NCBI RefSeq assembly: GCF_041146345.1 | Contig: NW_027191414.1 | Coordinates: 496,001-560,000, forward strand | DNA from: Neodothiora populina | Taxonomy: Eukaryota | Direction: 5' to 3' | Length of the DNA: 64,000 bases | Part shown: positions 593 to 45,332 of the stretch, in pieces | How the letters are laid out: each line of letters starts with the position of its first letter | Numbering within the stretch: the first letter of the stretch is position 1 | The notes under the pieces: generated by a model | What the model was told of the DNA's origin: nothing | The model's input: only the letters and a program-made list of their open reading frames with translations | Database searches by the model: none | Position numbers and translations under genes: made by a program

Positions 593-1955
593 ATGTTCTC
601 CCCTATCGTACAGCTTTGCGCTGTCGCAGGTCTAGCCTCGGCGACCAACCTTTTCGTCTCATCCTATGACGGTAACATCACCACACTGTCTTTGACCGAG
701 ACAAATGGATCATATAACCTTGGGAAAACATACTCCAATGATGGCTGTGCGCCGAATCCTTCTTGGCTTACTCTAGACTATGGTCATGGCGTTCTGTACT
801 GCTTGGATGAGGGTCTAACCACCGTAAATGGCACCTTGAGCTCTTTCACCATTGGCGCCAACGGTGAATTAGATCTTGTGGAGAAGAAAGACACCATCAA
901 CGGACCCGTCAGTGGAATCGTTTATGGCAATCCTGCCACAGGCAAGAGAGCGATTGCCCTGGCTCATTAGTACGTGATCTTGCCCTTGTATCGTACCCCT
1001 CTTGCATGGATGTCTGACAGAATATACAGCGTTGGAAGTGCCGTGAGTAGCTGGACTCTGAGTCCCTCGAGCAACGGAAACTTCACTTTCAACGAAGCAT
1101 TCACGTACGAGCTGGACCAACCTGGTCCAAATGCCCAGCGTCAGGATGCACCTCACGAGCACGAGGCAGTGGTCGACCCAACAGGGCAATTCATCCTGGT
1201 TCCTGATCTCGGCGCTGATGTTGTCCGTGTCTTCTCTATCGACCCAGACACCCTCAAGCTCACGCCCGAATCGCCACTCGAGGTCACACCAGGATCTGGT
1301 CCTCGCCACATTGCTTTCTACAACCCTCACAGCACCGTGTGCAAGACTTGCACGAGCTACATGTTCCTTGTCACCGAGCTCACCAACCGCGTCATCAGCT
1401 ATCGTCTGAGCTACCCTGCTGCTGGCGGCATGTCGTTCACCGAGGCTTTTAACATCAGCACCTTTGGTGACAACGCTGTTCCCGTTAACAACACTGCTGC
1501 CGAGATTGAGGTTTCTGTAAGTCTTTCCCACGTGTATCCTCGGTATCCTGCCTTGGCACTATATTCACCTCGCAGAAGAAGTGACGATAGACTACTGACT
1601 CACTCTTCAGCCCGACAACCGCTTCCTCATCGTCTCAAACCGAAACAACACCATCTTCAACCTGCCCAACCCAGACTACCCAACAAACAAGACCGAGATC
1701 CCCTCGGACGCCATCTCGACCTACCAGATCAACAAGGCCGATGGCTCCCTGACTCACACTCAGCTCTGGCCCGCCGGCGGCTTCTTTCCTCGTTCTTTCA
1801 GCATTAGCAAGGCCGGAGACTTGGTTGCTGTTGGCTTGCAGTACAGTAGCGAGGTCGTCATCTTGAGTCGTGATGTCGCTAGTGGCAATTTGGGAAGGCC
1901 GGTTGCGGCTATAGCGATTGATGGACAGGTCACTTCTGTTGTGTGGAATGAGTAG
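593..1955 (+). CDS. Secreted lactonase-family beta-propeller (6-phosphogluconolactonase / muconate cycloisomerase-like); exons 593-969, 1030-1516, 1611-1955
   Basis: Signal-peptide-like N-terminus; family motifs RQDAPHEH, DPTGQFILVPDLGADVVRVF, GSGPRH, SPDNRFLIVSNR, GGFFPRSF. GT-AG introns 970-1029 and 1517-1610 restore the frame. Alternative ATG at 581. Confidence 0.88.
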
Positions 1956-2285: not shown

Positions 2286-5200
2286 CTACATGAACCCAAC
2301 TTGTCTCCACTTGCTCAGGTACAGATTCAACAGATCGGTATCGACAGCCGGAGCATCGCGCAACCTTGGCACCAGCGCAGTGGTCTTTTCGGTTTCGAAG
2401 ACAGCCGCATCCTCGTCCGCTGCCCGTGCCATGCTTTCGAAGAAGCCAAGTAGTTTAGCGCCAGGAACGTCACCACCTTTTACCTCACAAGCAACCTGCA
2501 GCCTGGCGACCCATTCGCTCATGCTTACACGATCGAAGGCCGTTTCTGACGCTTGCTCGAGCGCGTCAAGGAATTGCGCCCAAGTGATTGTGGATGGGTT
2601 TACGAGATTATGCAGCGTGTATTTATCTGTCTCCGCGAGATCCCGGTTGAGAAGAGTAGCACGGATGGACTCTGCGCAGATGTCCACTGGGAGCCAATTG
2701 ACAAGTGACTTCTCACCGAAGACCGGCATGGCCTTGAGATGTTGCAAGCCAGTGGCTATCATGATGGGAAACATCTCGCTTGTGTTCCATGCGCCCAGCA
2801 CAGTGTGTCCACAAAGCTGGCCTACGCGATAGATGCGTACAGGCATATCGAGGACGCGCGAGTAGGTCTGGGAAACGACTTCGATGATGAATTTGCTTTG
2901 GGCGTAGCCGGTCTCGAGTGCGAGAGATGGGTTGTTGACGATTGGCGTTTCGTGGATTATCTTCCCAGCACTTGATTTGCCCATGTTGGTTGCCACGCTG
3001 CTCGTGAACGCAAATGTCTTCTTCTTTGTTGTGTAAGCAAAATGCATCAAGTTGAGTGTGCTCTTGAGACAATCATCCTCAAACATATCGACTTGTTGGT
3101 TGAAGTCCAGTCTCCAGGCGTTGTGCATGACTGCGGTAACTTCACCAGCTAGTTGTTGATGGGTCTCATCATCAAGCCCAAGCTTGGCATCTCTCATGTC
3201 ACAAGGGACTACGACAAACTTGCCACTCGTGGAGATGGCATTCGCGTAGCCACGAGTTTGCAAAGCCTCTGTCAGCCGCTTTCGGCCATTGGAGCCTCTA
3301 ATAGCGCAATAGACTTTCGAAACCTTAGGGTCTGCATCGAGGGCAGCGAGAAGGGCATTTCCGATCGCTCCAGTAGCACCGGTAAGGTAGACGACCTCGG
3401 CAGAGCTCTGGTCAAAAGTCCTAGGTTGTGATTCGCCAGCCCAGGACTCTATCACCGCGTTGTAGTTTGATATAGTATCTCGAATCCAGCAAATATTCTT
3501 GTTCGCCGTCGCAGCTGTGTCCGCCATAGTACTTTGGCCAAGTCGCTGCGACAAGCTTTGTGGAGAAGGATGCTCGAAAATGAGCATCATAGGGAACTTT
3601 CCAAATCTCTTCGATAAGCTTGACCGTAGTTTGACGGCCTTTTGTGAGTCCAGTCCAATCTCGTAGAAGCTAGTCGAGCTCTGCACGCGCTCAACAGACA
3701 GACCACAAGCACTAGCCACTGCATGACGGACAAACGCCAGATCATCAAGGCGTGCACTCTTTTCGTCTTCTCCACTCTCATCAACATCATCGAAGACCTT
3801 AGCATACAGCTCTTCAACTTGTCCGCCATACAATGACTTCGCTTCATTACGACGGACGTTGCCTTTAGGAGTTACCGGTAAGGTTTCGCCGTCCTTTAGA
3901 AAGAGGATGAGTGATCTGTTGAGTCTCGAGAAGGAGGGGAAGGCTTCACAAGCAGCTTCCATAGCGACAAGAATAGGTTCCACATCCGAGTGGCCCTGAG
4001 CCTTGCTCAACTCAACGACAGCAGATGTGCATGGTTTGCTTGTGCCGAACACAATGATCTTCTTGATTGCTGGGTGACACTCCTCTATGGCCATCTGGAG
4101 AGGCAAGGCGTTCGTCTTCTCACCATTCGAGTGTACGAGCATGTCATCCTTCCGACCTTGGAGCATGTAGAGACCGCTGTTTGGAGGATCTTGGATGAAC
4201 AAATCGTTCGTGCGGTATGGGTCCGGCGCCTGTGAATCAAGCCAAAGCTCTGCTGCTAAGGGAAAGCCCTTGTAGATAACGCATTCATAAAGATTTTCAC
4301 CTTGCGGTTCCATCACTACGCGCGCATCATTTGGAAACAGACTCTTGACTCGGTAGCAGCTACCTTCGAGAGTATCTGGAATGGTTCGGTATGGGGGCCC
4401 AATCTCAGTGGAGCCGTAAGTGGTCTTGACGTTGACCTTGAGCTTCTCCAAGTTCTGTAGCATAGTTGGAGATAACGCAGCACCGCCGGGCTGCAGGACT
4501 TTGAGCTTGCTCAAGGGGGAAAAGTCTTTCTCGGCGGAAAGAGTGATATACTCGTAGAGATCCTCGATTACCGAGGGAGCACAATGCAGGCAATCAACAG
4601 GTCTACCAACCTGTTCCAGCTTTCTCCAAGCACCGAGAATAGCTCCAGGCGACGGGGGCCAAGTCTCTGGAGGAAACGTTGTTGGCAGAGCGGTTGGGAC
4701 GCCGCCGAGAATGATTGATACACCTGCAATATGGAATCTAGGACTGTTAGTGAGCGTAGCGTGACTTTGATCTATGGCCGTCTTACAGTGGGAAACAGAG
4801 GTACCAATTCTCCACAATAAAGCTCTGGAAGAGACGATACATCCGCGCGATCAGCATGATGCTTCTGTTGGTGTGAATGATGGGTTTCGGTAAGCCGGTT
4901 GAACCACTCGAATGGATAATCATGGTCTGTTGGTTCCATTCATCATCAGACTCGAAGCGTACATATTCAGATACGGGCTTAGGGTCCCATTCCAAAGAGA
5001 CCGGCACAAAGGGTACAATAGGGACTTGTAGCCCTTGCACATGGCGAACATATTTCTGCTCAACCACAACACCTACGGCATTGCAGACTCGCATCAAGTG
5101 GTCACGAGCGACTTCGGCATTCTTGTCACTGAGCAATAAGACCCTTACACCAAGCTTAAGCAGTGCAACTTGAGAGACCCAGTAACGGAACGTGTTACCA

Positions 5201-5636
5201 CTACCGAGGAGCGCGAGAGTGGGCTGTTGGTTCATTGATAAGCTGGTCTCAAGCTCTCCCTGGAAGGCCTGCGAGTATTGCGCGGCCACATACTCTGTTA
5301 GGTGGTCAAATTGTTCCCAGGTGATCGAAGCAAATATGTCATCCCGCGGCACCAGATATGCAAGCTCATCAGGGCGGGTGCGAGCATTGAACTTGATTAA
5401 ACGCGGGAGGCTCGTGAGGTTTGCATCGAGATATCTTAGATCATCGTCAGCCTTGGCGATACTACGACTGTTATATTCAGACCACCAACGAACTTCGAAC
5501 TCTGGATATCACCATGCTGCGCCCACAATTTCTTCAATCTAGAATCTGCATTCTCGGAGGGGAATACACTTGTATCTGAGACGTTCTCAATGTGACTTGC
5601 GCTACTCTCCAGGTCCGCGACAGCGATAGGAGCCAT
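2286..5636 (-). CDS. NRPS-like A-T-R enzyme (adenylation, thiolation, terminal reductase; carboxylic-acid-reductase-like); introns 5435-5493 and 4738-4786
   Basis: A-domain motifs IIHSSGSTGLPKPI, FPLFHIAG (across the intron), YGSTEIG, YRTNDLF, GRKDD, NGEKTN; carrier motif FYEIGLDS; reductase motifs LTGATGAIG and GYAQSKF. Confidence 0.92.
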
Positions 5637-6364
5637 GATAGGTTTTCGTGCTGGTGACGTTTGTGATACAATGCCGCCACGACCATGGCAGTCTTTGTAT
5701 AGCCATTCTTGCGCCTGATACCTGATAGTCCCAAGTCACGGCATGAAGTTGATAGCGTGATAGGAAAGCTGAGACCTTGCCCGTATCGGACCCTTCGGGC
5801 AAGCGTGATTGTAACAAGCAACAAACACACGAATCAGTGGACTGCCGCCAAGATTATCGTATCATCGCCGGCAACTTGGATTTCGGTGGAGATAGGCCCA
5901 TGCATCCAAAGACACTATTCTCCTGCGGCGCAGAATATACTCCTGCAAGGCCAATGTCACTGATCAGTATTGATATCGTAGTAACTTGGACACTCGATGA
6001 AATCCATGCTGACTTCAAATAGGCCTGCCCAGGCATTATAGGGCGGCAATCTACCCTATCTCTCAAACGCACGCAACAAACGCCTAAGATTCTCTTATCT
6101 TAGTCACATCGTGCTGTTGAGACGGCCAAGAGCCTTGGAACTCAGTGCAAAGTATGACCTTTGTACATGTAGATCGATCCTACAGGTAATATGGTGAGAT
6201 ATATACCCTTTGCCACATCTTACTGACTCCCTGTGACACTACGATATCTTTGTGATCTATTGCAATAAATTTAACCTGGTAACCTGGAGACATTTGCTTT
6301 AAGGCTGCCCAATACTCTACCATTTTTGCATTCGACAGCAGAGGCTCAGTACTTGCCAGAAGCT

Positions 6365-8004
6365 ATGTTGGGTCTTCGACGCCGACTGGCATTGGAATCA
6401 GCATACCTGAATGGTGCAGATGATCAGATAGCCTCAAACAGAGAACAAGAACCTATACCACCGGACTCGGTTGAACGAACATGGACTTGGCCTTCACTGC
6501 TTGGCTTCTGGGTTGCAGAAGCCTTCTCCATATCTATGTACCAGGTTTCTTCTAGCTCTGTGAGTAAAGGACTCAATCCAGGTCTCTCTATCCTGGCAGT
6601 CCTTATCGGTCATTTTCTCGTCTGTATTCCGGCTATCCTGGACGGATGGGTAGGCGCAACATTCGGCATCAACTTCCCAATCTTTACCCGAGCCAGTTTT
6701 GGTATGCGAGGGAGTTACTTTGCCGTCTTCATCAGAGGCGTTGTCGCTGTCATCTGGTTTGGAACCCAGAGTTTCCAAGGTGGGCAATGCCTACAGGTCA
6801 TGATATCCGCTATATGGCCTAGCTTTAATCGCTTTCCAAATCACATCCCTGAAAGTTCGCATGTTACGTCTGCACAACTGCTTTGCTTCTTCCTCTTCAT
6901 CATCGTCCAAGCACCACTGCTGTGGTTGAAGGTGTCGAGTCTCAGATACATGTTCATGGCCAAGACTGTCATCATGCCGATATTCGGTCTTACGCTCTTC
7001 ATCTGGGCACTGGTCGCTGCGAAGGGTTTCGGTCCAACGTTCTCGAAGCCTACCCACATCAAGGACGGAACCTCCACCGCAGTTGTCTTTCTTCAATGCG
7101 TCACGACTGCCATCGGTCCCAAGGCCACTCTTGCACTGAACATGCCCGATTTCACCCGATATGCGAAGAAGAGATCTGATGTTATCTGGACACAAGCAGT
7201 TGGCCTTATGGTCCTCGTCACCATGTGTGGCGTGTTGGGTGCAACTGTATCCAGCGCTACAGAAGTGATATATGGCAAGACAACCTGGAACCCTCTTGAG
7301 GTGGCAGTGCTTTGGAACAACAGGGCAGCACAATTCTTCGCTGGCTTATGCTGGATGTTCGCAGTCATTGGCACGAATATTTCTGCCAACAGTGTCTCAT
7401 TCTCGAACGATCTTGCTCTCTGGTTCCCGAAGTACATTAACGCCAGAAGAGGCGCATATGTCTGCTGCATTCTTAGTATTGCTTGCACACCATGGAATAT
7501 CCAATACAAGTAGGTCCATGGACTTCGTTTTTGTAATCATTGCGTGACTAACCCATCATTAGTGCCAAATCATTCTCGTCGTTCCTCGGCGGTTACTCCT
7601 TGTTCTTGGGCGCTCTTGCTGGAGTCATCGTCACTGACTTCTGGATTTGCCGTCGCCGGTCATTGGACGTGCGAGAGCTGTACAAGAAGCACAGCGTCCA
7701 CAGCTTCACGAAAGGATTCAACTTTCGTGCGTTTGTTGCTTTCTTCTGCGGCATTGCACCCGATCTACCAGGTCTAGCTGCCGCCTGTGGCGCAAAGGGT
7801 GTCCCTGTGGGCGCGAAGGATCTGTACAGTCTCAGCTGGCTCGTGGCGATCATCATCTCGGGAGCAGTGTACTGGGCATTGTGGAAGATCTTCCCATTCG
7901 AAGTCTCGCCGAGCAGCGACATGTATGTCGATGGGATTGAAGACAGATCAGATGATGGTGTCACCAAGATACCACACGAAGTTTCGAAAAAGGATTTCGA
8001 CTAA
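6365..8004 (+). CDS. NCS1 (nucleobase:cation symporter-1) permease, Fur4/Dal4-like; intron 7510-7562
   Basis: Multi-TM protein with GINFPIFTRASFGMRG, WFGTQS, NMPDFTRY, TNISANS, PKYINARRG, PWNI, FLGGY motifs. The GTAGGT...AG intron joins the two ORFs in frame. Confidence 0.93.
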
Positions 8005-8214: not shown

Positions 8215-10381
8215 TTAGGACATGATAGACTGCTCCTGGAAGGCTTGGAGAGCAGATGGGGACAGCTCTATGAGCTTGTCAACACCAGCAACATACAAAG
8301 CGTCCAACCTAAGTAGGGCGAGGTTCAAGAGGTCACAGCTTCGAGACTTAAGACGTAGAAGACTTCTCCAGGATCCGAGCAATTGCAGACACTCGTTCGC
8401 ATCAGTGAGGGTAGGGGCAGTTGCGAAAAGTAGGACCATGAAGTTGCTCGCAATAGTGAAGTTTGTTCGCGAGTCTGCTAAGCATTAGTACCGTAGCAAG
8501 ATAGAAGCAGGCACCCAAACTTACATGATGGCCAGAATGCTTCGAGGTGGCTAACATCAAGGGCATCCAGAAATTCAAACATCTCCTTTGCCAGAGAAAT
8601 TGCGCCCTGACGAAGAGCTGCACCAGCTTGCACGTTTGCCTCACCTCTAGGCCTCAACATGGCGCGGAATAACTCGATCTTGGCGGTGATGTAAGCTAGA
8701 TGTAGTGAACCTTCACCATTGAGGTCGTGGGCTTTGCGATCATTGGCTGGGGAAAGTCTGTCCTTGTCGAGGTCCTTGTACCATTGAGCAAGCTTCAAAC
8801 GCAAAGGCTTTGCCACCTCAAGAGTTGACTCAAGGGAGTTGCAGAGCTTTCGAGTGGATTTCAATGAGCTAGTATGCGGTCAGTACAGCAGGTCTGGATT
8901 CGTCACAGCCAGAACTTACAATAGGTTCCGAAGGATCTCATCAACTATTTCAGCTAATACACATAGCCGTAGAAAATACTCTGATTGAATGATTCCTTGA
9001 TCGTTCTCTTCGAAATCTTCAAATGTCAGAGGGTTCACGTCCCAATCGTCTGCGCTAATGTGTGAGCTTCGGCCAAAATTGAGACTCAGCCACTTCTCCT
9101 GTGAATACAGCGCCCAAGCCACTCTCTTTCGAAGCTTCAGCTCCCAGATTGGTAGTGGCCAGTCTGCTGGATCGAGATTGAGACCGAGCGCTTGCGATAT
9201 TGACACTGCATTGGTCATGATGATCCACTTGAACGGGGTGTCTGCGACATGCCTGTTGGTCGGCCGCCTTTGCACGAGCAGAAGTAGGGTCTGAACCACG
9301 GCCAACGAAGGTATGTGGAATTGAGGGATGCACGCTGTCCAGGCCAGTGTGAAGAGAGCATCCGGAGATGGAGGTGTATATACCTCGACACAAAGCTGGT
9401 CATCAAATATGCAAAAGGGCAGGGCATGACCATAGATTGCTGCAAGCAAAGGAGTGGCTATACGATCCGGGTCAAATTCACCATCACGCATGCTGCGTTC
9501 CCTCGAAAGAATTGGGAAGTATGGCTGTATGTAACGAAAAAAACTGTGGTGGACAAGGAATATTAGATGGGGTACGAGAACACAGAGGCTGTCAAACAAG
9601 GAGTGAGATTCAGTACGTACAGCTTTATAAGTCTCTTGCCAACTCCGTCATTGACTATATCCTTGATTTCCCTTCTCCATGTGTCCACGCTGTTTGGGTT
9701 CTCAGCAGGCTGAGCTTTTGCAGCAAGCTTGTTCTGCTGGATCATGAAATGCACCGGTACGCTATCGTTCTCTCCAACTCGTCGCATACGGATCTGTTGG
9801 AAGGTAAACTCGTTGTTGCCATCGAATCGATAGTGACGGAGGAGATACGGGTCTTGTTCGCCACTCAAGCCTACCACTTGAGAGTGACTGGACGTTTGTG
9901 AATCAAGAGAAGGTTCTCCAGCACATGAGGGATCAAGTGGAAGCGACTGTGGCGTGTCATTGGCAGGTGGAGCTAGGCCTGCTTGGACAGGATCGAATTG
10001 CTCAAACATCAAGGGCTCGTAGACTGGAGGATCAAATGTGAAGTCGCTGTGCAGAGATGGGGGAAGGAACGGTGGCAACTGCTGCTCCCAGCTCAACAGC
10101 TCACTGCTGATATCAAAGTTGTTGTTTGTCGGCAGCAATATTTCTGATGACCGACGTTCCTCGTTCGGCCGGCGACGCTTTGCAGGACTTTCAACGAAGG
10201 TACATTCTTTGCCATATCGAATACATAACTCGCATGGTGGATCTGCCTCGAGGTGGCAGGCAGCTTTTTTGTAACGACAGAAATCACAGGGACGTTTGTT
10301 ACGGCTCTTGTACGCCCTTGACCTGTCTTGAGCGTCTGTTTGCATCTGCTTGGGCAAACCTGGAGCACCCATGATGTCCAT
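8215..10381 (-). CDS. Zn(II)2Cys6 transcription factor with fungal-specific TF domain, Dal81/TamA-like; introns 9544-9620, 8869-8919, 8475-8524
   Basis: PCDFCRYKKAACHLEADPPCELCIRYGKEC binuclear cluster; VVGLSGEQDPYLL; ALGLNLDPADW...ELKLRKRVAWALY middle-homology region; canonical GTACGT/GTAAGT donors. The subfamily is my recognition only. Confidence 0.9.
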
Positions 10382-11959
10382 GCCTTTTTAGCCTAGGAGA
10401 TGGAGGTTTGTCTGATAGGCGTGGAGGGACGACCTATCTGGCCGTCGTGTCTGTCTAAATAAAGGCGAGAGAATGCGGGTAATCCTACAATACTCATAAA
10501 AGCAACGGCATCCCTCGACTTCTTCAGATCAAGAAACCGAGTTGTTGGGGACAAAGGTGACTATCGGTCATACTGTATTTCCCGATCAACAGCACTTTAC
10601 GCATGAAGCTATCAGCGAATACTCTATTGGTCGATGTTCCAATTGCGATGTCGCATTGTATGTTTATCCTTATCGGATCCACCGACACGCTATCCTGCTA
10701 AGAGCTACTCCACTCACGGTACACCGACCGCATCCCACGTGGCTACCATGGCTGAAAAGCCCAGCTTCGTTGTCATTTGTTCTGTTCCAGAAGTCTGGGT
10801 TCTCTCCATTCTATGATCAACGCGATACGAAGTATAATCTTTCGCTCTGGGTCATCCATAATCCGCCTTTTTGCCATGGAGCTATGTAGCGAGCATACGA
10901 CAATCGTTAGCCAAGGCAACTTTCTTGTTTGATACAGTCTCTAGTGCTGTATTGCTCTGACCTTATCAGCATCCTTGCGACGTCGGCGAGTCAAATTGAG
11001 TAAGCGAGCCATGACAAACGGTACGCAAAGCCCCTCTGTTTAGAGAGATGGAATGCGGGCAGAGTGGGGCTCGAGGGGATGGCGTGTTAAAGAGGACCCT
11101 GTCGATCCCCTGGAGTGGTTTCTGGCGGCCTTTTTAGCGCATTAAATCGCCGCGGTGGACTTTCGGACGAGTTCAAAGAGGAAGGCTCAGCCCGAGCGAT
11201 GAACGTATTGTCGGACTTTACATAAACCACACGACATCCATATATTCCCGGCGTGAGTAACCCTAGTAGTGAAGTCAAGCTGGCAAGCATAACGTGGTAC
11301 CTTATGGTTACAGATTCTGGTAGGCGTCTATATACGACTATAAGATGTGACCTGGATCCATGACGGCCATAGCAGTGTTTACCACTGCAGCAAAATCGAA
11401 AGATCCGGTGGGACTTCCGTCACGATTGTTTGGAACCTGTGTAGGTACTTCTACGCACAAGTACAAGTAGTGCCGTAGGCAGAGCCGCTTCGCCGGCGGG
11501 TTGGTACTAGATAAGCATTATGCCCAGCGTATATCGTGGTCCTTACTTCTCCATGTTTCTTATCAAACATGAGGGGTTGGCCGTATCGCGGCTCTCGGCC
11601 AACATCACTACGAGGTGTGCGTACGCATGCCTGGTTACTGATGTGCAGGGACATAGATAGGACAGTCGTGTAGTGGAGCGCCGTACTGATGGTGCTGTAT
11701 GTTGGCCGGATATGGCCCATATCGTTGAGCCTACCAATGTACAGAATATGATAGCTCTATCAGGTCTGCTTCAAGTATGCTTTATGTTTGTATCTTGAAT
11801 TAATTATCTTCAGTGTCAGCCTTCATAATATCACCGTCAATCCAAAGAGATACCGAGACTAGACTGCATACACAACCCCATCACTGACACTGAGTCGCAG
11901 CATTCCCTCCTTCACACGTCACCACAATAGCTCATTTCTAGGGACGTAAAGGATTTACA

Positions 11960-13792
11960 ATGGCGCGGAAGATAGTGCTTGCAGCTGCGCAGATGGGAGC
12001 TACCCATCGTAGTGATGAAAGACCTCAGACCTTGGCTCGTATGGTAGAACTTCTGAAGCAAGCAGGTTCCAAAGGTGCTGATGTGGTTCTTTTCCCTGAG
12101 ACTGCGTTTACGACATTCTTTCCTCGGTATTTGATCGAAGACCCGGTCGAACTCGAGTTCTGGTTCGAGCACGGAGACGTGACCACAGCGCCACAGACGA
12201 AGGCTCTTTTCGAGACGTCCAAGCAAATTGGAGTAGATATTGCTGTAGGCTTCGCTGAAGCGACCGAGGACGGTGAACACTTCAACAGTACGATATATTA
12301 CCATGCCAAAACTGGCTCCGTCTTGTCCAAATACCGGAAGATCCATCTCCCAGGCGATTTTGAGCCTATCGGCGACAAGAATACCACTCAGCAACTAGAG
12401 AAACGCTACTTCAAAGTTGGCGACCTGGGATTTAAGGCCTTCCGCGTGCCTGATCTGGCCCAACCTACAACAGCTGAGCGTGGCGAACCCATCTTTGGTA
12501 TGATGATTTGCAACGACCGACGATGGGCTGAAGCATGGAGAGTGTTAGGCTTACAAGGTGTTGAGGTTGTATTATGCGGCTACAACACTACTGGTTATGC
12601 CCCTGAGTTGTGGGGCTGGGATAAGGATGTTGCACCTGAAGCAATGCGTGATCTGGCAGTGTTTCAACACAAGCTCTCAATGCAGGGACACTCGTACACC
12701 AACGCATGCTTCTCCGTGAGTGCTGCACGTTGCGGTCTCGACGACGGAAAGCACGACCTTGTGGGAGGCTCGTGTATCACCGACCCCGAGGGCCGCATTC
12801 TTGCCGAAGCAAAGACAACAGAAGATGAAATAGTGATTGCAGAATGCGACCTAGATCTTTGCCGGGCAGGGAAGACGCGGATCTTCGACTTCTCCAGACA
12901 CAGACGGCCTGAACACTATAAACTTGTCACAGAGCAAGTTGGTGTCATCGAGCCTCCTAGGCTGTCAACAATCAACCACGCGGACGGCCACCTTGCTGAG
13001 ACGAACGGCGTCCAAGTTAACGGCACAAATGGTGTGTCAAGGAGTGGCAACAAGAAGATCAGGGTGTTGCTTGTAAACCCTAACGCGACGAAGTTCATGA
13101 CCGACAACTGCGTGAAGATGGTCGAGTCACAACTGCCACCTGATGTCGAAGTCATCGGCTTTACATCACCACCTCCAGCACCAACAGCCGTAGAGGGCAA
13201 CTTCGACGGTGTGATGTCTGCGGCAGCCGCAATGCGTGCGCTGAAGCCCATCGCCCACGGATACGATGCTTTCCTCGTAGCCTGCTATAGTGATCACGCA
13301 CTGATCCGTATGCTACGCGAAGAGTTCCTACAACCCACTATCGGTATCATGGAGGCATCCCTCTTCGCGGCACGCACTCTGGGCAATCGATTTGGATTGA
13401 TTGCCACGAGCAGACGCTCAAAGGCGATGCACGAGGACTCGATCCGACACTACGGCTTCGACGGCTTTTGTGCCGGAGTCGGAAGCTGTGGTCTAGGTGT
13501 CCTCGAACTCGAAAGCAAGAGCGAAAGAGAGGTGCTGGACATCATGTGCGGCGTAGCCAAGGACTTGGTAGAGAAAGGCGCGGACTGCTTGACGCTGGGT
13601 TGTGCAGGCATGACGATGCTGAAGCCGGCAGTCGAGGCGGCTGTAGGCGAGGATGTTCAGGTCATAGATGGAGTATTGGCCGGTGTGCAGCACCTATCTG
13701 GCCTTGTGAGGATGGGTGGGAGAACAGCCAAGGGGGGCATGTATGCCAGCTCTGCAAGAGGCAGAAAGAATCGTGGCCAGAACTACTACTGA
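11960..13792 (+). CDS. Two-domain fusion: N-carbamoyl-D-amino-acid amidohydrolase (nitrilase superfamily) + Asp/Glu/hydantoin racemase (Dcg1-like)
   Basis: Single intronless 610-aa ORF. N-part has the nitrilase triad FPETAF (Glu), YRKIHLPG (Lys), ICNDRRWAEAWRVLGLQG (Cys). After an NG-rich linker the C-part has LVNPNAT, VACYSDH, IGIMEAS, LGCAGM, VIDGV. Confidence 0.92.
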   Translation: MARKIVLAAAQMGATHRSDERPQTLARMVELLKQAGSKGADVVLFPETAFTTFFPRYLIEDPVELEFWFEHGDVTTAPQTKALFETSKQIGVDIAVGFAEATEDGEHFNSTIYYHAKTGSVLSKYRKIHLPGDFEPIGDKNTTQQLEKRYFKVGDLGFKAFRVPDLAQPTTAERGEPIFGMMICNDRRWAEAWRVLGLQGVEVVLCGYNTTGYAPELWGWDKDVAPEAMRDLAVFQHKLSMQGHSYTNACFSVSAARCGLDDGKHDLVGGSCITDPEGRILAEAKTTEDEIVIAECDLDLCRAGKTRIFDFSRHRRPEHYKLVTEQVGVIEPPRLSTINHADGHLAETNGVQVNGTNGVSRSGNKKIRVLLVNPNATKFMTDNCVKMVESQLPPDVEVIGFTSPPPAPTAVEGNFDGVMSAAAAMRALKPIAHGYDAFLVACYSDHALIRMLREEFLQPTIGIMEASLFAARTLGNRFGLIATSRRSKAMHEDSIRHYGFDGFCAGVGSCGLGVLELESKSEREVLDIMCGVAKDLVEKGADCLTLGCAGMTMLKPAVEAAVGEDVQVIDGVLAGVQHLSGLVRMGGRTAKGGMYASSARGRKNRGQNYY

Positions 13793-14450
13793 TCCGACTT
13801 ACTCTGGATAGATCACGACAGTATATACGGATATGACGATAGCCATGAGCATCTATGTTTTGCAGCGGTCAATAAGGTGGCTTTTGTTCGCTCAACTTAA
13901 GAGTATCGGCATGCCTAAATTTACACAAGACGTGCTGCAGCTCGACTAGCCTGACTTCGCATATGCGACTGACACCTTGCTTCTGTAACCACTACCTATG
14001 ACACGACCCGTCTGCGCTTGGTAAGGGCCAACCGAACAAAGAGCAAGAGCGGAACGAAGGTACGTTGGTGACGTCGCTAGCGCTGTTGCATTTAGGCGAG
14101 AGCAAATTCCGCTACTGATGATAGCACAGTACCTCGGCGAATGTACCAACATTCAGAACCGCGCTGCCACACGACAACCTACCGTACACTATCTTCGGAC
14201 AAATATGTAGCACATTGCTTTCGGACCTTGCAGCGCCACTATTAGGTATGTACTCAAGTATCCAAGCCTTGGTGTCAGCACACCCTACGACGACGTAGCT
14301 ACCCCGCATAACCCCTCATACTCCGTAGCTTGTCCGTACATAAACAATGCGGCGAAGGTAGGAGTGCTTGACAAAGCAACTTTGTGTTCTCTGCAGTGGA
14401 AAGCATACCTTTCCCAGTCATAAACATAAATTCGTGTTTCGAAAAGTGAT

Positions 14451-15697
14451 ATGGCCGCACAAAGTCAGCTCCCGCAGGGAGAGTACGTCGACCCAGCACA
14501 GGCGCAAGGAGCACAAATACCGCTGCAATCCTTCTCACTACCACAATTCCCACCCCAGGCACAGGGTCTCAAAGCGCTGACCTTGACATCTGACATCAAG
14601 CTCGACGACTACCAGTCACTGCTTTCTCAGCAATTCGAGATACCCCTATTACCAACTTCGATCGAGTCTTTGACACTCGAGCTGTTCTCCCTTGGCTATC
14701 CTCCTGGCTTTCTTACTCAATTGGCAGACCGTCTGCCTAACATTAAAAGCTTAGTAGTATACAGCCAGCTTTTGGGAGGTGTGAGCGAAGCTTCTCAGGC
14801 AGACTGCGTCGAGTTCTTCCGCAAACTATCGGGTCTCAGAGCACTGCACCTCCTGGATGTGTTTGCCAAAGCTGGGTTCTTCACATCGATTGCTCCATAC
14901 CTCACCTACTCTGCGGAGGGTGAGGATGCAAGAAGAGGCTTAATGTTCCTTGAGATCAACTACACCGTGCAGCATTCTGATGCGGATTTTCTGCCTAAGA
15001 TTCAGGCGACCGAACTGCCAAAGTTGATCGGACCAGGTCTGATCACAGCCGCCTTCAATGTGAGTGAAGCAGATGTCACCGATGATCCAGATGATCCAAA
15101 CAACGCCAGTGATGCACCAGAAGAAGAGCTCGCGAAAGATGGGATAATGGCCTTCAACAAGACATTGGCATCTGGACTCGTGGACATGTTGACCGATGAA
15201 GAGACTCGCCCAAGAAGTCTCAAGGTATTGAATTTGACTTTGTACACCCTTACACCCGCGGATCTGAAGAAAGTGGCAGAGAAGCACACAGGATTGATGG
15301 TGCTGAGTGCTACGATTGAAGTCGATGAACAAGATGCGAACCGCCGATTCTTGGTCAAGACACTTGCTTCTCTAAACAAGTTGGAGCAAGTCGAAATAGT
15401 CGCGAGTCCGAGTCTTCCATTTTTCATGGCGGTAAGTCCTGACATGAATTGTGCATCCATGAGCAATCAAGTAACAATGCTGGATAGGTACAAAACACCC
15501 GCGCAAACGCCCTCGAGGGCTCTATGCCGTCAATCAAGGACATGGAAGGATTAGCAGAAAAATGCAAGCAGCTGAAGAACCTGAAGGCAAACATTCTCCG
15601 GTCGCACGCAATGGATTCGCTCGAGTGGGCCAAGGACAAGGACAAGTGGGAAGGAGGCATCAAGCATGGTGACATGCTTATATCCGGTGCTGCTTAA
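14451..15697 (+). CDS. Hypothetical protein with LRR/RNI-like leucine periodicity; intron 15432-15487
   Basis: Long ORF with repeated LxxLxL segments (LPNIKSLVVY, LSGLRALHL, SLKVLNL, LNKLEQVEI). The GTAAGT...TAG intron gives a second exon ending in TAA at 15697. Confidence 0.75.
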
Positions 15698-17981: not shown

Positions 17982-19416
17982 TCATCTCTTCAGGAAAGCG
18001 AGTGCGCCAGCGGCGTAAGCATCGATAGCAGTCTTCATGGTTGGATGGATAGCCGGAGAGAATAGAGCGCTGTGTGTGCCTAGTAACGAGGTCAGTACAG
18101 TCATCACTCCTCGCATCTCAAAGGGTGGAAGAATATGCAAAGATCTCGAAGAGGGATTGGGCAGGAAAAGATGCAGCAGTAGATAACTCACCAGCAATTT
18201 CATCAATCCTACCATTCTTCTTCGCATCATCCCACACCTTCTGGTCGATACCACCGTAGTTCCAGAAACAGCAGGGCGCACCAACAGCATTAGACAAGTG
18301 ACTGAAGTCCTCACTTCCCATGCTAGGGAACGGACTCGTCGAGAACCCCACGCCCTTTGAACTCTCATCATCCTTTCCGAAATGATCAATCATAGCCTCA
18401 GCCACGGTCTCTGAAACCGCCTCGTCGTTGTACAGTAACGGAAAGTGCGAGATGCTCTCGAACTTCGGCGGTTGAGGACATCTGAACGCTTCGCACTCAC
18501 ACCTGACGATGCGCTCGATGCTCTCCTGCACGCGTCTCCTGTTCTCCTCGCTAAACGTGCGCGTGTTGACTTTCAGCACGGCTTCGCCAGCAATGATGTT
18601 CTCTGCGTTACCGGCCTGCAGCGAACCCACAGTTACCACTACCGCATCCCTGGGATCCATCTCGCGACTGACTATCGTCTGCAGCTTCAGCACGATCGAC
18701 GAAGCCATGACCACAGGATCAATAGCCTGATGTGGTCGACTCCCGTGCCCTCCACGACCAAAAACCGTGATCTTGAAACTGTCAGCCGCGCTGTTAAACG
18801 GACCTCCGGCCGTCTGCACAGTCCCCGCGCGCGCAGGCATGATATGCGCACCGAGCACGATATCAGGCTTCGGCACATCATGGCGACTGGGATCATAAAG
18901 CCCATCATCAACCATGGCCTTGGCGCCCGCAGCGCGTTCCTCATTAGGCTGGAACAACATGATGAGCGTCCCGGACCAGGCAGCCTTCGCACCCTTCAGA
19001 AGCTCCGACGCCGCGAGCAGAGTACTGCAATGCATGTCGTGGCCGCAGGCATGCATGACGGGCTTCTCGACCCCGTCCGCGACATCGACCATTCGCTTCG
19101 TGCTCGAGTACGGCAGGCCGGTCGCTTCTGCTATCGGTAGCGCGTCCATGTCTGCGCGGATGAGCACGGTTTTGCCACTGCCATTGCGGAGGATCCCGAC
19201 TACGCCATGCCCACCGATGGAGGTCTTGACTTCGTAGCCGAGGGATACCAGGTGGTCTTTGATTCGTAGTGAGGTTGTAGATTCCTGGAGAGATAGCTCG
19301 GGGTCTGCGTGGAGGGTCTTGTAGAATTGTTCATATGCTGCCAGGACCGGCCGATGGGTATCTATCAGCGCTGAGATGGCAGAGGACGACGAGGACTCTG
19401 CTCTGGGTTCTGTCAT
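17982..19416 (-). CDS. M20 metallo-amidohydrolase, Acy1-like / hippurate-hydrolase type; intron 18080-18191
   Basis: PELSLQE, IRADMDALPI, MHACGHDMH, FQPNEE, GRGGHGSRPH, MGSEDF; last exon begins THSALFSP after a GTGAGT...CTAG intron. Confidence 0.92.
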
Positions 19417-20108
19417 TGCGGTTTTTTATGAAGCTCGAGTCTAGTGACGTTACTTGTGTATGATCTAGATCTGCAGGAAAGCTGTATTCTATATAGTCTA
19501 GAGATAATCAATGATCGTATGCCGAACAATGCCGCTACATATCATATATATCGATAGGGTCGGATGGTCAAATAAGGTGCTCTTATCAGGCCGAACTTGT
19601 CGAAATTGGCCTGTGCGCGCTGATAGATCTGCGTGCGAAGCGCCAGAGTTCAGAATACCAGATAAAGACATTTAGCCATGGCAACAGTGGAGAACAGATG
19701 TATTCAGTAACAAGACCTGGACACCAACTTGCTACAGGTCTCAATCGAGACCATGACTGCGAAGAAACCGAGTGAAGATAATTGAGGTGGCACACTACTT
19801 GGTCTACCATGTACGCTATCTTGCTTCTCATCCCACTTTCCTCATACTGCCGGCCCTGTCGCTGTTTGGATATCTCTTTTACATGTAATCATAAGGAGCG
19901 TCAGGCTGCCTGCTAAAAGAAGCTTCTTGAATATGCAGTGCTTCGCAAATCCCCCATGGTTCCAACCATTACGCCGTGCTTTCGATCTCGTCTCTCATCA
20001 GTCACATTCCTCCTCCGCCCATCCGATATGCAAGTACATACTGATGGGTGATGCCCAGCAAGTATGTCTCCTTTAAGAAAAGAAAAAAAAAGACGAATCC
20101 TAGTCTCA

Positions 20109-43124: not shown

Positions 43125-44312
43125 TCACTGCATAATGTTCGCACCCATATCCTTGACCTCGCCACCCACAGATCTCACGGGGTGTCGATCGATAATGAAA
43201 AGCCTGTCAAACGTGTCTGCGTCCCAGCACATGCGCGCGGAACTGAACTCTCGCGCTGCGAACTGCGGGCCGAGCGTTTCGCGGAGTAAAGTGCGCATGC
43301 GGGATTCGGAGTCTAAAGGGATCTGATTGCGGGCGAGCGGGGTGGATTTGGGGGGGGCGGCCTGGGCAGGTGGAGACGGGGTTGATGTAGCCTGGGTGTT
43401 CGTCGCAGATTTCGAGCTCTGGAGGGTTCGAGGCTGTGGGCTCGATGAAGAGGCCTCGGTCTGCGGCGAAGAGGACGGGGAGAGCTTTCATGCGCGCTGC
43501 TTCGGGAGCTGTTAGAAGGATGTGGGCTAGGGTCGGTTTTGGACTGATCAGCTCAAAGTGAAGACGGGTGAAGGAGGAGGGATGCGGGTGCTGACCCATG
43601 CTGTCTGTCTTAGTTGGCCTTCGAAATCAAAGATCAGATCAGAGGATGCTCCAGCGGCGAGAATGACATGTTCAGCGAGATGCTCGACCGCATCTGCGGT
43701 TCTCGCTCCCAGAACCTTGCCGGCATCCTCATCATATATCAATGCCTGCACTTTCCCCACAGGATCACCAGCAACGAACTTGACACCCAGTCTACACGCC
43801 TCTGAATATGCACTCATCATCGCGCCTCGAGCGAACACCCACCCAGCACCTTTCTTCCTCCAAAACCCTCTCCAGCCAGGGAACTCACCGTTCAACACCC
43901 CCTCAGGCATCATCTTCCTAAACGCCTCTTTGCCATTCACGACCTCATACTCGTCCTCATGCCCAGTCGTATACCCCTTGACATGCTCATACGCTTCATC
44001 TCCCACAGCAGCAAACACGATGCCCGTCTCATGGTAGAAGCGTTTGTACACCTCATCATTTCTCCAGGCCTCAGTAGCTATCTGATGCATGCGGTTCCAG
44101 ACATATGACTCTTGGTTATCCGTCGACGAGGGCGGATCGCCTTCTTCCATGATTTTATTCACGTCGTTGCCCGCTGAGATGCTAGAGGGGATTGCGCAGC
44201 TGTCGAGGACGAGGATGTCGGTGTAGCCTCGCCGTGCCAGGGTTAGTGCTGTGCTGATGCCCCATGTGCCGCCGCCTATTACTTGGATTGGAGAGTTTTG
44301 AGTGGGAGGCAT
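43125..44312 (-). pseudogene. Fructosyl-amino-acid oxidase (amadoriase / sarcosine-oxidase family), apparently disrupted
   Basis: VIGGGTWGISTA, SAGNDVNKI, GAGWVFA, TAW|TLAHI, ICDEHPGY, MCWDADT. The intron 43534-43595 ends in CG rather than AG, there is a frameshift at the G8 run 43350-43357, and the C-terminal segment after DRHP is missing. Confidence 0.8.
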
Positions 44313-45332
44313 TGTTGAGGGTGTGGTCTTTATGAGGTTGGTATATTTGCTTTGCTTGGGCTTATGGATAGGTCAACAGGGCAGAATTGTCAACCGTATG
44401 GTTCAGGCCAAGTCGATCTCTGTATTGCACGTAAGGGTAGATATATAAAGCGAAAGTTCAGACGATGCTAATGTAGTCAGACACGATTGAAGTGAATCAA
44501 GATATCACAAGCATGATTAGAAATGAACATGATTTCAAGGAGGTAGTTGATGTTTCATATTCTACACCATGCAGGTCCGATGGTGGCGTGGGAAGATGTG
44601 GTGGAGACGTATATACATCGTGTGGAGACATGTGATAAGAGGAATTGGTCCACCTTCCACTCCTGGCTTGCATATGACAAAACGACTGAGACGATCCTGC
44701 GAGCTTACCGCATTCATAGTGGCAATATGGATTGTGAGATCCAGGAGTGGTGGATTGGCACATGAGTATGATATTCGTGGACGAGTATACGATTAGTCGA
44801 CTTTCGGCTGACCACAGCGCTGTGCAGTATTGCGGAAAGCCATGATCATCACTATCTATACAAGTTGAAACTACTATATAGGCACATACGGCCACAGGCA
44901 GCTGAGAACTGGGCATCCCGTCCGCTCTGCCAGACATAAGCAGTTGACCGGCTGATTAGTACTACGGTGGGTGACCACGTGGGAATCCCAGCTGCTGTAT
45001 GTTTTGTATTTTTGCAACAGACATACGAACATCGGTCTTCGCACTGTTGTGGTTCACCATGTTTTGGGCATCGTACTCAGAGCACGTCCTCGTAGTGGTA
45101 CGCAATTCAAGCTGCGTAGTGTTTGAGTCGACCGTGTTCGGCTGCGACGTCCAACTCGTGACTCTTGCTGGGCTATTTAGAATTCAACATTTCCCTCCCG
45201 GTTATATTACTTTTGTTTATCTTTCAATCAACGTGAGTCTCGTAATGACCGATCTCTCGAACGATCTGGGCTTGACTGGACCAGACCATATGCTGTAGAT
45301 GCGTAGCTAGACTTTCTCCTGCTCGTGAGTCA

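What the first reader, a model, noticed from the sequence alone, without database searches (positions are those of the whole stretch)
11960..13792. Single-polypeptide D-carbamoylase / hydantoin racemase fusion with both active sites intact
Seen: one stop-free, intronless frame. The nitrilase triad (E in FPET, K in YRKIHLPG, C in ICNDRRW) is followed by a linker (HLAETNGVQVNGTNG) and a racemase domain from about 13055 with both catalytic cysteines (ACYSDH, LGCAGM). Known: ICNDRRW.E.WRV.GL.G matches bacterial D-carbamoylases of the industrial hydantoinase process, where the two enzymes are separate proteins. The fusion joins steps 1 and 3 and skips step 2. Inference: either the racemase acts directly on N-carbamoyl amino acids (a two-step L-to-D route) or a hydantoinase partner docks on the fusion. 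It could be a useful biocatalyst.
Basis: partly seen in the sequence, partly recalled or inferred. Interest (0 to 1): 0.75.

Follow-up and report, generated by a model that had tools for sequence, protein, structure and literature searches.

The report
Fungal D-carbamoylase–hydantoin racemase fusion enzyme
One fungal gene encodes two enzymes of a hydantoin-breakdown route joined in a single protein; the fusion is real and common in fungi, but nobody appears to have tested what it does.

Summary
Window 11960-13792 (+) is one uninterrupted 610-aa frame. It has an N-terminal nitrilase-superfamily domain closest to solved bacterial D-carbamoylases (E 7e-74), a variable, disordered linker (about residues 336-362), and a C-terminal Asp/Glu/hydantoin racemase domain closest to allantoin racemases (E 1.7e-26). 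All catalytic residues are present and almost invariant in 120 fused homologues.

The fusion is not unique. The 120 best database clusters all carry both domains. Those with a source name are fungal, and some are already annotated with both activities. Four literature searches found no functional study.

The link between the two enzymes is old. In alphaproteobacteria, homologues of the two halves lie in one operon (33 of 79 loci) and are sometimes direct neighbours in the fusion's order. Of the 33 racemase-bearing loci, 30 also hold a candidate ring-opening hydrolase.

My reading is a bifunctional enzyme of a cyclic-ureide (hydantoin-type) nitrogen-salvage route. The middle, ring-opening step would be encoded elsewhere, since no such gene is in the window. 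An allantoin-permease-like NCS1 transporter and a Zn2Cys6 regulator lie next door.

The substrate is unknown. The active site has Gln where industrial D-carbamoylases have His144. Moderate interest; a new variant of a known kind.

The parts
11960..13792 (+). Single-exon coding sequence of the 610-aa fusion protein (stop TGA included)
   Evidence: full-length alignment to 120 fused homologues
11960..12964 (+). N-terminal D-carbamoylase-like nitrilase-superfamily domain (residues 1-335)
   Evidence: Pfam CN_hydrolase E 1.3e-41. PDB D-carbamoylases 8i99/6led/1fo6/1erz at E 7e-74 to 1e-68 over residues 1-329. Foldseek TM by target 0.83-0.85.
12098..12100 (+). Codon of catalytic Glu47
   Evidence: (120 of 120)
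12338..12340 (+). Codon of catalytic Lys127
   Evidence: (120 of 120)
12392..12394 (+). Codon of Gln145, at the position of His144 of Agrobacterium D-carbamoylase
   Evidence: Invariant Gln in 120 of 120 fused homologues. Bacterial relatives split into a Gln type and a His type. His144 is named as one of six residues around Cys172 in PMC11151596 (passages).
12509..12511 (+). Codon of catalytic nucleophile Cys184 (ICNDRRW); the carboxylate-binding Arg187/Arg188 codons follow at 12518-12523
12965..13045 (+). Variable linker (residues 336-362)
   Evidence: Mean column conservation is 0.14 for residues 341-360, against 0.6-0.9 elsewhere. pLDDT is below 50 at residues 339-363.
13046..13789 (+). [quoted passage not shown]
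   Evidence: Pfam Asp_Glu_race E 3.4e-56. PDB allantoin racemases 5lfd at 1.7e-26 and 3qvj at 6.9e-25, against glutamate/aspartate racemases at 8e-6 or weaker.
13283..13285 (+). Codon of catalytic Cys442 (ACYSDH)
   Evidence: Aligns with the first catalytic Cys of 3qvj; 120 of 120
13601..13603 (+). Codon of catalytic Cys548 (LGCAGM)
   Evidence: Aligns with the second catalytic Cys of 3qvj; 119 of 120
10382..11959 (.). Intergenic region shared with the divergently transcribed Zn2Cys6 regulator (presumed promoter)
   Evidence: Geometry. No motif shared with the permease promoter beyond chance.
8481..10381 (-). Zn2Cys6 / Fungal_trans transcription factor gene (several exons, boundaries not determined); candidate pathway regulator by position only
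   Evidence: Pfam Zn_clus and Fungal_trans
6365..8004 (+). NCS1-family permease (two exons, about 6365-7510 and 7552-8001; intron borders not determined); candidate substrate importer by position only
   Evidence: Pfam Transp_cyt_pur E 2.9e-79 and 5.3e-20. NCBIfam allantoin permease 5.4e-45 against cytosine permease 4e-6, all below equivalog cut-offs.

Best explanation
The gene encodes a bifunctional enzyme of a route that salvages nitrogen from a 5-substituted hydantoin or related cyclic ureide. The C-terminal domain uses two cysteines to interconvert the two enantiomers of the ring compound. A separately encoded ring-opening hydrolase, not in this window, converts one enantiomer into an N-carbamoyl-D-amino-acid-like product. 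The N-terminal domain then removes the carbamoyl group through its Glu-Lys-Cys triad, releasing ammonia, CO2 and the amino acid. The fusion therefore joins the first and third steps of a three-step route, probably for co-expression and fixed stoichiometry rather than channelling. Shown: domain identities, intact and conserved catalytic residues, wide conservation of the fusion, and the bacterial gene linkage. Inferred: the substrates, the stereochemistry, the order of reactions, and the roles of the neighbouring permease and regulator.
For: Both halves are under purifying selection in 120 fused homologues, while the linker is free to vary. The N-domain keeps 5 of the 6 residues that PMC11151596 places around the nucleophile, including the Arg-Arg pair. 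The C-domain keeps polar residues that hydrogen-bond the substrate in allantoin/hydantoin racemases (Asn12 in 120 of 120, Thr119 in 95 of 120) plus the family-typical Met17 (118 of 120); it lacks the hydrophobic residues of the peptide epimerases OpaE/NozR. Its PDB matches are about 20 orders of magnitude better to allantoin racemases than to Glu/Asp racemases. The bacterial evidence is of the Rosetta-stone kind. In 79 bacterial loci holding the nearest D-carbamoylase homologues, 33 have a racemase homologue in the flank. 45 have a PuuE-like polysaccharide-deacetylase-family hydrolase. 20 have an ErtD/dihydropyrimidinase-type cyclic amidohydrolase. 60 of 79 have one or the other, and 30 of the 33 racemase-bearing loci do. 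The racemase is thus the accessory partner of a hydrolase plus carbamoylase core, as in the hydantoinase process described in the review PMC7431475 (passages). Annotated plasmids show the same three functions together in Paracoccus and Sulfitobacter. In the window, an allantoin-permease-like NCS1 transporter and a Zn2Cys6 regulator flank the gene.
Against: No ring-opening hydrolase lies in the 64-kb window. Pfam on all stop-to-stop frames of at least 120-140 aa found none, and tblastn with 10 bacterial ring-opening or amidohydrolase queries gave no real match; the only hit at E<=1 (0.051) lies inside the fusion gene itself. Some bacterial units consist only of regulator, carbamoylase and racemase (L080, L072), which would fit a self-contained two-step module. 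Fusions more often join consecutive steps. The bacterial loci are dominated by Bradyrhizobium and Roseomonas relatives, so the counts are not independent events. The bacterial racemases linked to D-carbamoylases form a clade separate from the fungal C-domains, so function is transferred across about 30% identity. Linkage of the fusion to the permease and regulator in other fungi could not be tested, because no fungal genome collection was available. No activity has been measured.
Confidence: 0.5

Rival explanations
1. Self-contained two-step enzyme, the first reader's option (a). The C-domain racemises N-carbamoyl amino acids, and the D-specific N-domain pulls the equilibrium, so N-carbamoyl-L- or DL-amino acids are converted to D-amino acids without any hydantoinase.
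For: The steps would be consecutive, as is usual for fusions. There is no ring-opening hydrolase in the window. Minimal bacterial units of LysR, carbamoylase and racemase have no such hydrolase within 9 kb (L080) or 8 kb (L072).
Against: The only N-carbamoyl-amino-acid racemase activity described in the review PMC7431475 (passages) belongs to N-succinyl-amino-acid racemases, an unrelated fold. The C-domain's closest characterised relatives act on the ring compounds and it keeps most of their substrate-contact residues. 30 of 33 bacterial racemase-bearing loci do hold a candidate ring-opening hydrolase.
Confidence: 0.13
2. Consecutive steps in the other direction. The N-domain releases a D-amino acid (for example D-Glu or D-Asp) and the C-domain racemises that product to the usable L-form.
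For: The Pfam family includes Asp and Glu racemases. In locus L037 the gene next to the D-carbamoylase homologue is an amino-acid racemase of the cysteate/aspartate racemase type, scoring 253.5 bits against a cut-off of 190. In Roseomonas loci the adjacent hydantoinase is most like hydantoin-5-propionate amidohydrolase, whose product is N-carbamoyl-glutamate.
Against: The C-domain matches allantoin racemases at E 1e-26 but Glu/Asp racemases only at 8e-6 to 3e-4. Its motifs around the two cysteines (ACYSDH, LGCAGM) align with those of the allantoin racemase 3qvj. That these are the hydantoin-racemase type of motif rather than the Glu/Asp-racemase type is recalled, not tested.
Confidence: 0.12
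3. A purine-ureide enzyme. The C-domain is an allantoin racemase (a Dcg1/HpxA analogue) and the N-domain hydrolyses a ureide of that pathway, such as allantoate or a ureidoglycolate-like compound, instead of an ordinary N-carbamoyl amino acid.
For: The best solved relatives of the C-domain are allantoin racemases. The neighbouring permease scores best against allantoin permease models. In L072 an OHCU decarboxylase/HIU hydrolase gene lies 3.6 kb from the carbamoylase-racemase pair. Yeast DCG1 is called a probable allantoin racemase in the review PMC13751858 (passages).
Against: No other ureide-pathway gene is in the window. By my own stereochemical reasoning, not a tool result, the natural intermediates (S)-ureidoglycine and (S)-ureidoglycolate are L-like, whereas the N-domain resembles D-specific enzymes. 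The permease scores are far below the equivalog cut-offs (154 bits against 620). The L072 association is a single locus.
Confidence: 0.12
4. Not a real fusion: two genes wrongly read as one, or one half is decaying.
For: Standalone fungal versions of both halves exist.
Against: The frame is continuous with no stop. 120 of the 120 best clusters have both domains at 579-663 aa. Catalytic residues are invariant or nearly so in both halves. Both domains are modelled confidently.
Confidence: 0.02

Closest known systems
Bacterial N-carbamoyl-D-amino-acid hydrolase (D-carbamoylase, EC 3.5.1.77; Agrobacterium 1erz/1fo6, Nitratireductor indicus 6led/6lei)
   Same: Same fold and the same Glu-Lys-Cys triad, the ICNDRRW motif and the Arg-Arg pair. 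In the full HMMER alignment to 8i99/6led, identical residues are roughly half of the aligned columns, and the match spans the whole domain at E 7e-74.
   Different: It is fused to a racemase. Gln replaces His144 (invariant in the fused family). There are two fungal-specific insertions, at about residues 164-175 and in the loop after GYNT at about 212-228. All fungal sequences form their own clade, separate from both bacterial types. Activity is untested.
Allantoin racemase (HpxA/AllR, EC 5.1.99.3; 3qvj, 5lfd) and hydantoin racemase (EC 5.1.99.5)
   Same: Same family, both catalytic cysteines, and Asn12, Met17 and Thr119 equivalents conserved.
   Different: Thr/Ser118 is Ala (101), Val (16) or Ser (3) in the 120 fused homologues. 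The first cysteine sits in ACYSDH, where the solved allantoin racemase 3qvj has ACFGDPG. It is the C-terminal domain of a larger protein. The substrate is unknown.
Bacterial hydantoin-utilisation gene clusters and the industrial hydantoinase process
   Same: The same racemase and D-carbamoylase pairing. Homologues are co-operonic in alphaproteobacteria, sometimes adjacent in the fusion's order.
   Different: In bacteria they are separate genes. In the loci nearest to the fungal N-domain, the ring-opening partner is most often a PuuE-like polysaccharide-deacetylase-family protein or an ErtD-like amidohydrolase, not the classical D-hydantoinase. No such partner is in the fungal window.
Saccharomyces cerevisiae Dcg1 (probable allantoin racemase of the DAL cluster)
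   Same: A fungal member of the same Pfam family, assigned by similarity only (PMC13751858, passages).
   Different: It is a standalone protein next to allantoin genes.

Membership tests
Nitrilase superfamily (Pfam CN_hydrolase, PF00795) | Profile match above the gathering score | tested here: met
   143.1 bits against a cut-off of 23.2, residues 8-303
Nitrilase superfamily (Pfam CN_hydrolase, PF00795) | Glu-Lys-Cys catalytic triad | tested here: met
   E47, K127 and C184 align with the triad of solved D-carbamoylases and are present in 120 of 120 fused homologues
D-carbamoylase (N-carbamoyl-D-amino-acid hydrolase) | Closest solved and annotated relatives are D-carbamoylases, ahead of other superfamily branches | tested here: met
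   D-carbamoylases score E 7e-74 to 1e-67; the next branch, N-carbamoylputrescine amidase, scores 3e-16. Foldseek ranks 1-19 are all D-carbamoylases. No NCBIfam equivalog model for this enzyme matched.
D-carbamoylase (N-carbamoyl-D-amino-acid hydrolase) | The six residues around the nucleophile (E47, K127, H144, E146, R175, R176 in Agrobacterium numbering; PMC11151596, passages) | tested here: not met
   Five of six are conserved. H144 is Gln145 in 120 of 120 fused homologues. The nearest bacterial relatives share the Gln: 80 HSPs are Gln type and 19 are His type.
D-carbamoylase (N-carbamoyl-D-amino-acid hydrolase) | D-stereospecific hydrolysis of N-carbamoyl-alpha-amino acids | not testable with these tools
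   Needs an enzyme assay
Asp/Glu/hydantoin racemase (Pfam PF01177) | Profile match above the gathering score, and two catalytic cysteines | tested here: met
   190.8 bits against a cut-off of 31. C442 and C548 align with the two Cys of 3qvj that are Ser in the 3qvk mutant; they are present in 120 of 120 and 119 of 120 homologues.
Allantoin/hydantoin racemase subfamily | Asn/Asp12, Met17, Thr/Ser118 and Thr119 (KpAllR numbering; PMC12661438, passages) | tested here: inconclusive
   Asn 120 of 120, Met 118 of 120, and Thr119 equivalent 95 of 120. The position-118 equivalent is Ala 101, Val 16, Ser 3. Three of four features are kept.
Allantoin/hydantoin racemase subfamily | Racemisation of allantoin or 5-substituted hydantoins | not testable with these tools
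   Needs an assay (polarimetry, or NMR H/D exchange)
Hydantoin-utilisation gene cluster (racemase + hydantoinase + carbamoylase together) | A ring-opening hydrolase encoded beside the other two | tested here: not met
   None in the 64-kb window by Pfam on long frames or by tblastn with 10 bacterial queries. One is present in 60 of 79 bacterial loci.

The most novel reading that the evidence does not exclude
The fusion is a self-sufficient deracemising carbamoylase. Its racemase domain acts on the carbamoylase's own substrate (N-carbamoyl amino acids) or product (a D-amino acid). One polypeptide would then perform a dynamic kinetic resolution that industry now assembles from unrelated enzymes, and the hydantoin-racemase subfamily would gain a new substrate class.
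Probability: 0.2. Interest if true: 0.65.

Novelty: new variant of a known kind. Interest (0 to 1): 0.4.

Why it matters
Both halves belong to enzyme families used industrially to make D-amino acids from hydantoins, yet their natural roles remain poorly defined. This natural fusion is conserved across many fungi and mirrored by bacterial operons. That is good genomic evidence that the two activities work together in nature on some cyclic ureide. It marks out an uncharacterised Gln145 subfamily of D-carbamoylases. It also offers a ready-made bifunctional catalyst to test. If the racemase half proved to act on N-carbamoyl amino acids or on the product, it would be a new activity for its family.

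Tried and rejected
1. Shared promoter motifs. I compared the permease promoter (5509-6364) with the fusion promoter (10382-11959). Shared 9-mers numbered 11 against 10.25 in shuffles, and 10-mers 1 against 2.5, so there is no support for co-regulation.

2. Hydrolase search in the window. Neither Pfam on long frames nor tblastn with bacterial queries found one. The fungal partner stays unknown.

The taxa of the REP_ rows in the C-domain tree are therefore unknown, and Dcg1 could not be placed.

4. Atlas look-alikes for the permease and the C-domain gave only family-level names.

5. PDB search of the permease gave only distant matches: CodB at 4.5e-5 and Mhp1 at 1e-4.

6. Origin by gene transfer from the bacterial operon. 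In the N-domain tree the fungal clade (100*) is separate from the bacterial clade (100*) and is not nested in it. In the C-domain tree the carbamoylase-linked bacterial racemases are a separate long-branched clade. Co-transfer of an operon fragment is therefore not supported, and the direction of any transfer is unresolved. Both trees are quick searches with SH-aLRT support only and midpoint rooting. In one search my name rule wrongly labelled one row (BACT_Hyphomicrobiales) as His type.

7. Literature. Searches found no paper on this architecture. One search was too broad to be useful. One search (ErtD / hydantoin-5-propionate) returned unrelated uses of the letters. One search gave only transporter papers.

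8. I did not run complex prediction, because I make no binding claim.

9. Synteny of the fusion with the permease and regulator in other fungi could not be examined. The only genome collection open was bacterial and archaeal.
Full report
**Observation**

Window 11960-13792 on the + strand is a single open frame of 610 codons. It begins at the first ATG after an in-frame TAG and ends at a TGA.

Pfam finds a carbon-nitrogen hydrolase domain at residues 8-303 (E 1.3e-41). It finds an Asp/Glu/hydantoin racemase domain at residues 369-578 (E 3.4e-56).

Against solved structures, residues 1-329 match bacterial N-carbamoyl-D-amino-acid hydrolases at E 7e-74 to 1e-67. The next superfamily branch scores only 3e-16. 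Residues 367-598 match allantoin racemases at about 1e-26 to 1e-24, while glutamate and aspartate racemases score 8e-6 or weaker.

An AlphaFold2 model built on 74 fused homologues has mean pLDDT 83.3. Only residues 305-308 and the linker 339-363 fall below 50. Its best Foldseek matches in the PDB are D-carbamoylases, with TM by target of 0.83-0.85. The pTM of 0.58, beside well-modelled domains, suggests that the relative position of the two domains is not fixed. This is my reading of the summary numbers, not a measured result.

**Active sites**

Glu47, Lys127 and Cys184 align with the catalytic triad of the solved D-carbamoylases. Cys442 and Cys548 align with the two cysteines of Klebsiella allantoin racemase that are serines in the deposited double mutant.

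I aligned 120 fused proteins: the window's protein plus the 119 other clusters listed, leaving out the window's own shorter database model. The triad is invariant, Cys442 is present in 120 of 120 and Cys548 in 119 of 120. Mean conservation is 0.6-0.9 in both domains but 0.14 in residues 341-360. Both halves are therefore kept by selection, and the linker is only a tether.

PMC11151596 (passages read) lists six residues around the nucleophile of Agrobacterium D-carbamoylase: E47, K127, H144, E146, R175 and R176. Five are conserved here. The His144 position is Gln145 in all 120 fused proteins.

The nearest bacterial relatives also carry Gln there. In the bacterial loci, 80 matched stretches have the pattern EKHQECNRRNS. 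A second group of 19 has EKHHECNRRNT, as in the industrial enzymes. The fungal proteins also carry two insertions relative to the bacterial ones, one of them in the loop after GYNT.

For the racemase half, PMC12661438 (passages read) reports that allantoin/hydantoin racemases carry Asn/Asp12, Met17, Thr/Ser118 and Thr119. Asn12, Thr118 and Thr119 hydrogen-bond the substrate. The peptide epimerases OpaE and NozR have hydrophobic residues at these positions instead. The fused family has Asn in 120 of 120, Met in 118 of 120 and Thr at the 119 position in 95 of 120. At the 118 position it has Ala 101, Val 16 and Ser 3. This fits a small polar ring substrate better than a peptide, without fixing which one.

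**Distribution**

A search for proteins of similar length found 741 clusters at E <= 1e-10 among the 7999 candidates scored. All 120 that were listed carry both Pfam domains and are 579-663 aa long.

Named sources span several groups:
- Dothideomycetes: Delphinella at 82% identity, plus Phyllosticta, Zymoseptoria, Alternaria, Bipolaris and Hortaea.
- Eurotiomycetes: Aspergillus, Paecilomyces, Thermoascus.
- Sordariomycetes: Colletotrichum.
- Two basidiomycetes: Gloeophyllum and Neolentinus.

Some records already carry both names, for example JGI's 'Asp/Glu/hydantoin racemase/predicted amidohydrolase'. The architecture is thus in the databases.

Four literature searches found no paper that discusses or characterises it. 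The study of horizontal transfer of D-amino-acid enzymes, PMC5169069 (passages read), treats the racemase family in fungi. In the passages I saw it does not mention the fusion.

**Split forms**

Standalone fungal racemases 56-80% identical to the C-domain exist. So do standalone fungal D-carbamoylase-like proteins 48-69% identical to the N-domain.

Eight pairs of such standalone halves share the same 'longest contig' length in the two tables. One example is Amylocarpus, with both halves on a contig of 111,788 bases. This suggests neighbouring genes or split gene models, but I could not inspect the DNA.

In the N-domain tree (71 rows, quick search) all fungal sequences form one clade (100*). 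18 of the 19 standalone fungal proteins form a starred subclade apart from the fused ones. In the C-domain tree (107 rows) the fungal sequences again form one clade (98*). There, however, standalone racemases sit among fused ones in at least four places: Myriangiales, Didymellaceae, Mycosphaerellales-like and Leotiomycetes. Fusion, fission or loss of the N-half has therefore happened repeatedly. The racemase can evidently persist alone.

**Bacterial evidence for a functional link**

A scan of bacterial and archaeal genomes with an alignment of fungal and bacterial N-domains matched 609 stretches, of which 583 were confirmed relatives. The best 80 gave 79 loci. All whose record title allows a placement are Alphaproteobacteria (mainly Bradyrhizobium, Roseomonas and other Acetobacteraceae), at 45-52% identity (38% in the joined L072 match).

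A homologue of the C-domain lies in the flank of 33 of the 79. In a Bradyrhizobium locus the operon reads as follows:
- a LysR regulator;
- the D-carbamoylase homologue;
- an amino-acid-type ABC transporter;
- a polysaccharide-deacetylase-family protein, whose PDB matches include allantoinase PuuE at 6e-17;
- the racemase;
- a peptide-type binding protein;
- a TRZ/ATZ-type amidohydrolase.

The deacetylase-family protein is found in 45 of 79 loci. In Roseomonas-type loci the gene upstream of the carbamoylase is instead an amidohydrolase. It is most like hydantoin-5-propionate amidohydrolase ErtD (486-510 bits against a cut-off of 600, and well ahead of allantoinase). Enzymes of that or the dihydropyrimidinase type occur in 20 of 79 loci.

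By my tally of those two lists, 60 of 79 loci hold one or the other candidate ring-opening hydrolase, and 30 of the 33 racemase-bearing loci do. The exceptions are L014, L037 and L072. These counts are inflated by many related Bradyrhizobium genomes, but the pattern recurs in three orders.

The two homologues are direct neighbours on one strand, carbamoylase first as in the fusion, in L072 (25 nt apart), a Roseomonas mucosa plasmid (96 nt) and a Paracoccus yeei plasmid (6 nt). In the plasmid collection, 11 records had one place covering at least 80% of the fusion protein, that is, both homologues side by side.

A Sulfitobacter plasmid carries a racemase, two deacetylase-family genes, the carbamoylase, a dihydropyrimidinase and an ATP-dependent hydantoinase A/B pair together. 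None of the bacterial loci I looked at has the two halves fused.

**The window's neighbourhood**

Upstream lie an NCS1 permease (6365-8004, +) and a Zn2Cys6 transcription factor (8481-10381, -). The factor is transcribed divergently from the fusion gene.

The permease scores far better against NCBI's allantoin permease models (5.4e-45) than against cytosine permease (4e-6). It stays well below the equivalog cut-offs.

[quoted passage not shown] The bacterial member Mhp1 carries benzylhydantoin (PMC10788122, passages read). A transporter, a pathway-type regulator and an enzyme side by side look like a small catabolic cluster. That is inference from position alone: the two promoters share no motif beyond chance, and I could not test conservation of the arrangement in other fungi.

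No ring-opening hydrolase is in the window. Further genes nearby include an NRPS-like reductase, a lactonase, an M20 amidohydrolase and a pyridoxamine-phosphate-oxidase-like protein. None has a demonstrable link to the fusion.

**Interpretation**

The best-supported reading is a bifunctional enzyme for steps one and three of a hydantoin-type cyclic-ureide catabolic route, with the ring-opening step encoded elsewhere.

The identities of the domains, the intact chemistry and the ancient partnership of the two activities are shown. The substrate, the stereochemistry and the physiological role are inferred. Candidate natural substrates suggested by the bacterial contexts are acidic hydantoins such as hydantoin-5-propionate, or allantoin-like ureides. 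Neither is tested.

Three rivals remain open:
- The racemase acts on N-carbamoyl amino acids.
- The racemase acts on the D-amino-acid product. In locus L037 the carbamoylase's neighbour is indeed an amino-acid racemase of the cysteate/aspartate type.
- The protein is specific to the purine-ureide pathway.

**Novelty and score**

The gene is one member of a large fungal family that is annotated but uncharacterised. Its parts are well-known enzymes, and their natural fusion is a variant of a known system rather than a new kind. A specialist would find it useful rather than startling.

The more interesting points are the Gln145 subfamily, the recurrent PuuE-like or ErtD-like partners in bacteria, and the possibility that the racemase half has a new substrate.

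Interest 0.4.

Noticed in passing
window 11960-11992: The public gene model of this locus (P0002, 599 aa) starts at Met12. The 11 residues before it are conserved in fungal and bacterial relatives, so the model appears truncated at its 5' end.
   Followed up: yes
window 2289-5508 (-): An NRPS-like adenylation-thiolation-reductase gene (AMP-binding, PP-binding, NAD_binding_4) in at least two exons, with a 7-bladed lactonase fragment at 971-1804 (+). This may be a small secondary-metabolite or carboxylate-reductase locus beside the permease.
   Followed up: no
window 18121-19425 (-): An M20 amidohydrolase above the cut-off of the NCBIfam 'amidohydrolase' subfamily TIGR01891 (254.9 bits against 153.75) and most like carboxypeptidase CpsA. 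M20 enzymes include L-carbamoylases, but this one is 4.3 kb away and no link is shown.
   Followed up: partly
window 43551-44372 (-): An FAD-dependent oxidoreductase of the DAO family, about 30 kb from the fusion gene. D-amino-acid oxidases belong to this broad family; there is no evidence of a link.
   Followed up: no
window 11153-11166 and 11406-11419: Two similar CGG-type sites (CGGTGGACTTTCGG and CGGTGGGACTTCCG) in the promoter region of the fusion gene. They could be Zn2Cys6 binding sites. They do not occur in the permease promoter.
   Followed up: partly
P0020, P0044 (Gloeophyllum, Neolentinus): Fused homologues from two basidiomycetes are 66-68% identical to the window's protein and sit inside the ascomycete polytomy in both domain trees. 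This hints at transfer between fungal phyla.
   Followed up: partly
P0285 (Aureobasidium pullulans EXF-150): A standalone D-carbamoylase-like paralogue, 52% identical to the N-domain, from a fungus related to the window's source. It falls in the separate standalone clade, so some fungi carry both systems.
   Followed up: partly
L024, L031, L041, L050, L053, L056, L068 (Roseomonas-type loci): Two D-carbamoylase paralogues lie close together, one of the Gln type and one of the His type. They often come with an ErtD-like hydantoinase upstream and a racemase downstream on the other strand.
   Followed up: partly
L072 7992-9674: The carbamoylase and racemase ORFs are in the same reading frame, separated by one stop codon and 18 bases. 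This is the arrangement from which a fusion could arise.
   Followed up: partly
PDB 5lfd/5lg5 alignment: In the deposited Pseudomonas fluorescens allantoin racemase chain, the residue aligned with the first catalytic cysteine is Gly (AGYGEHG). I do not know whether this is an alignment shift or a feature of that entry.
   Followed up: no
window 14430-15551 (+): A 374-aa frame directly downstream of the fusion gene has no Pfam or NCBIfam match. Its sequence is leucine-rich and repeat-like.
   Followed up: no
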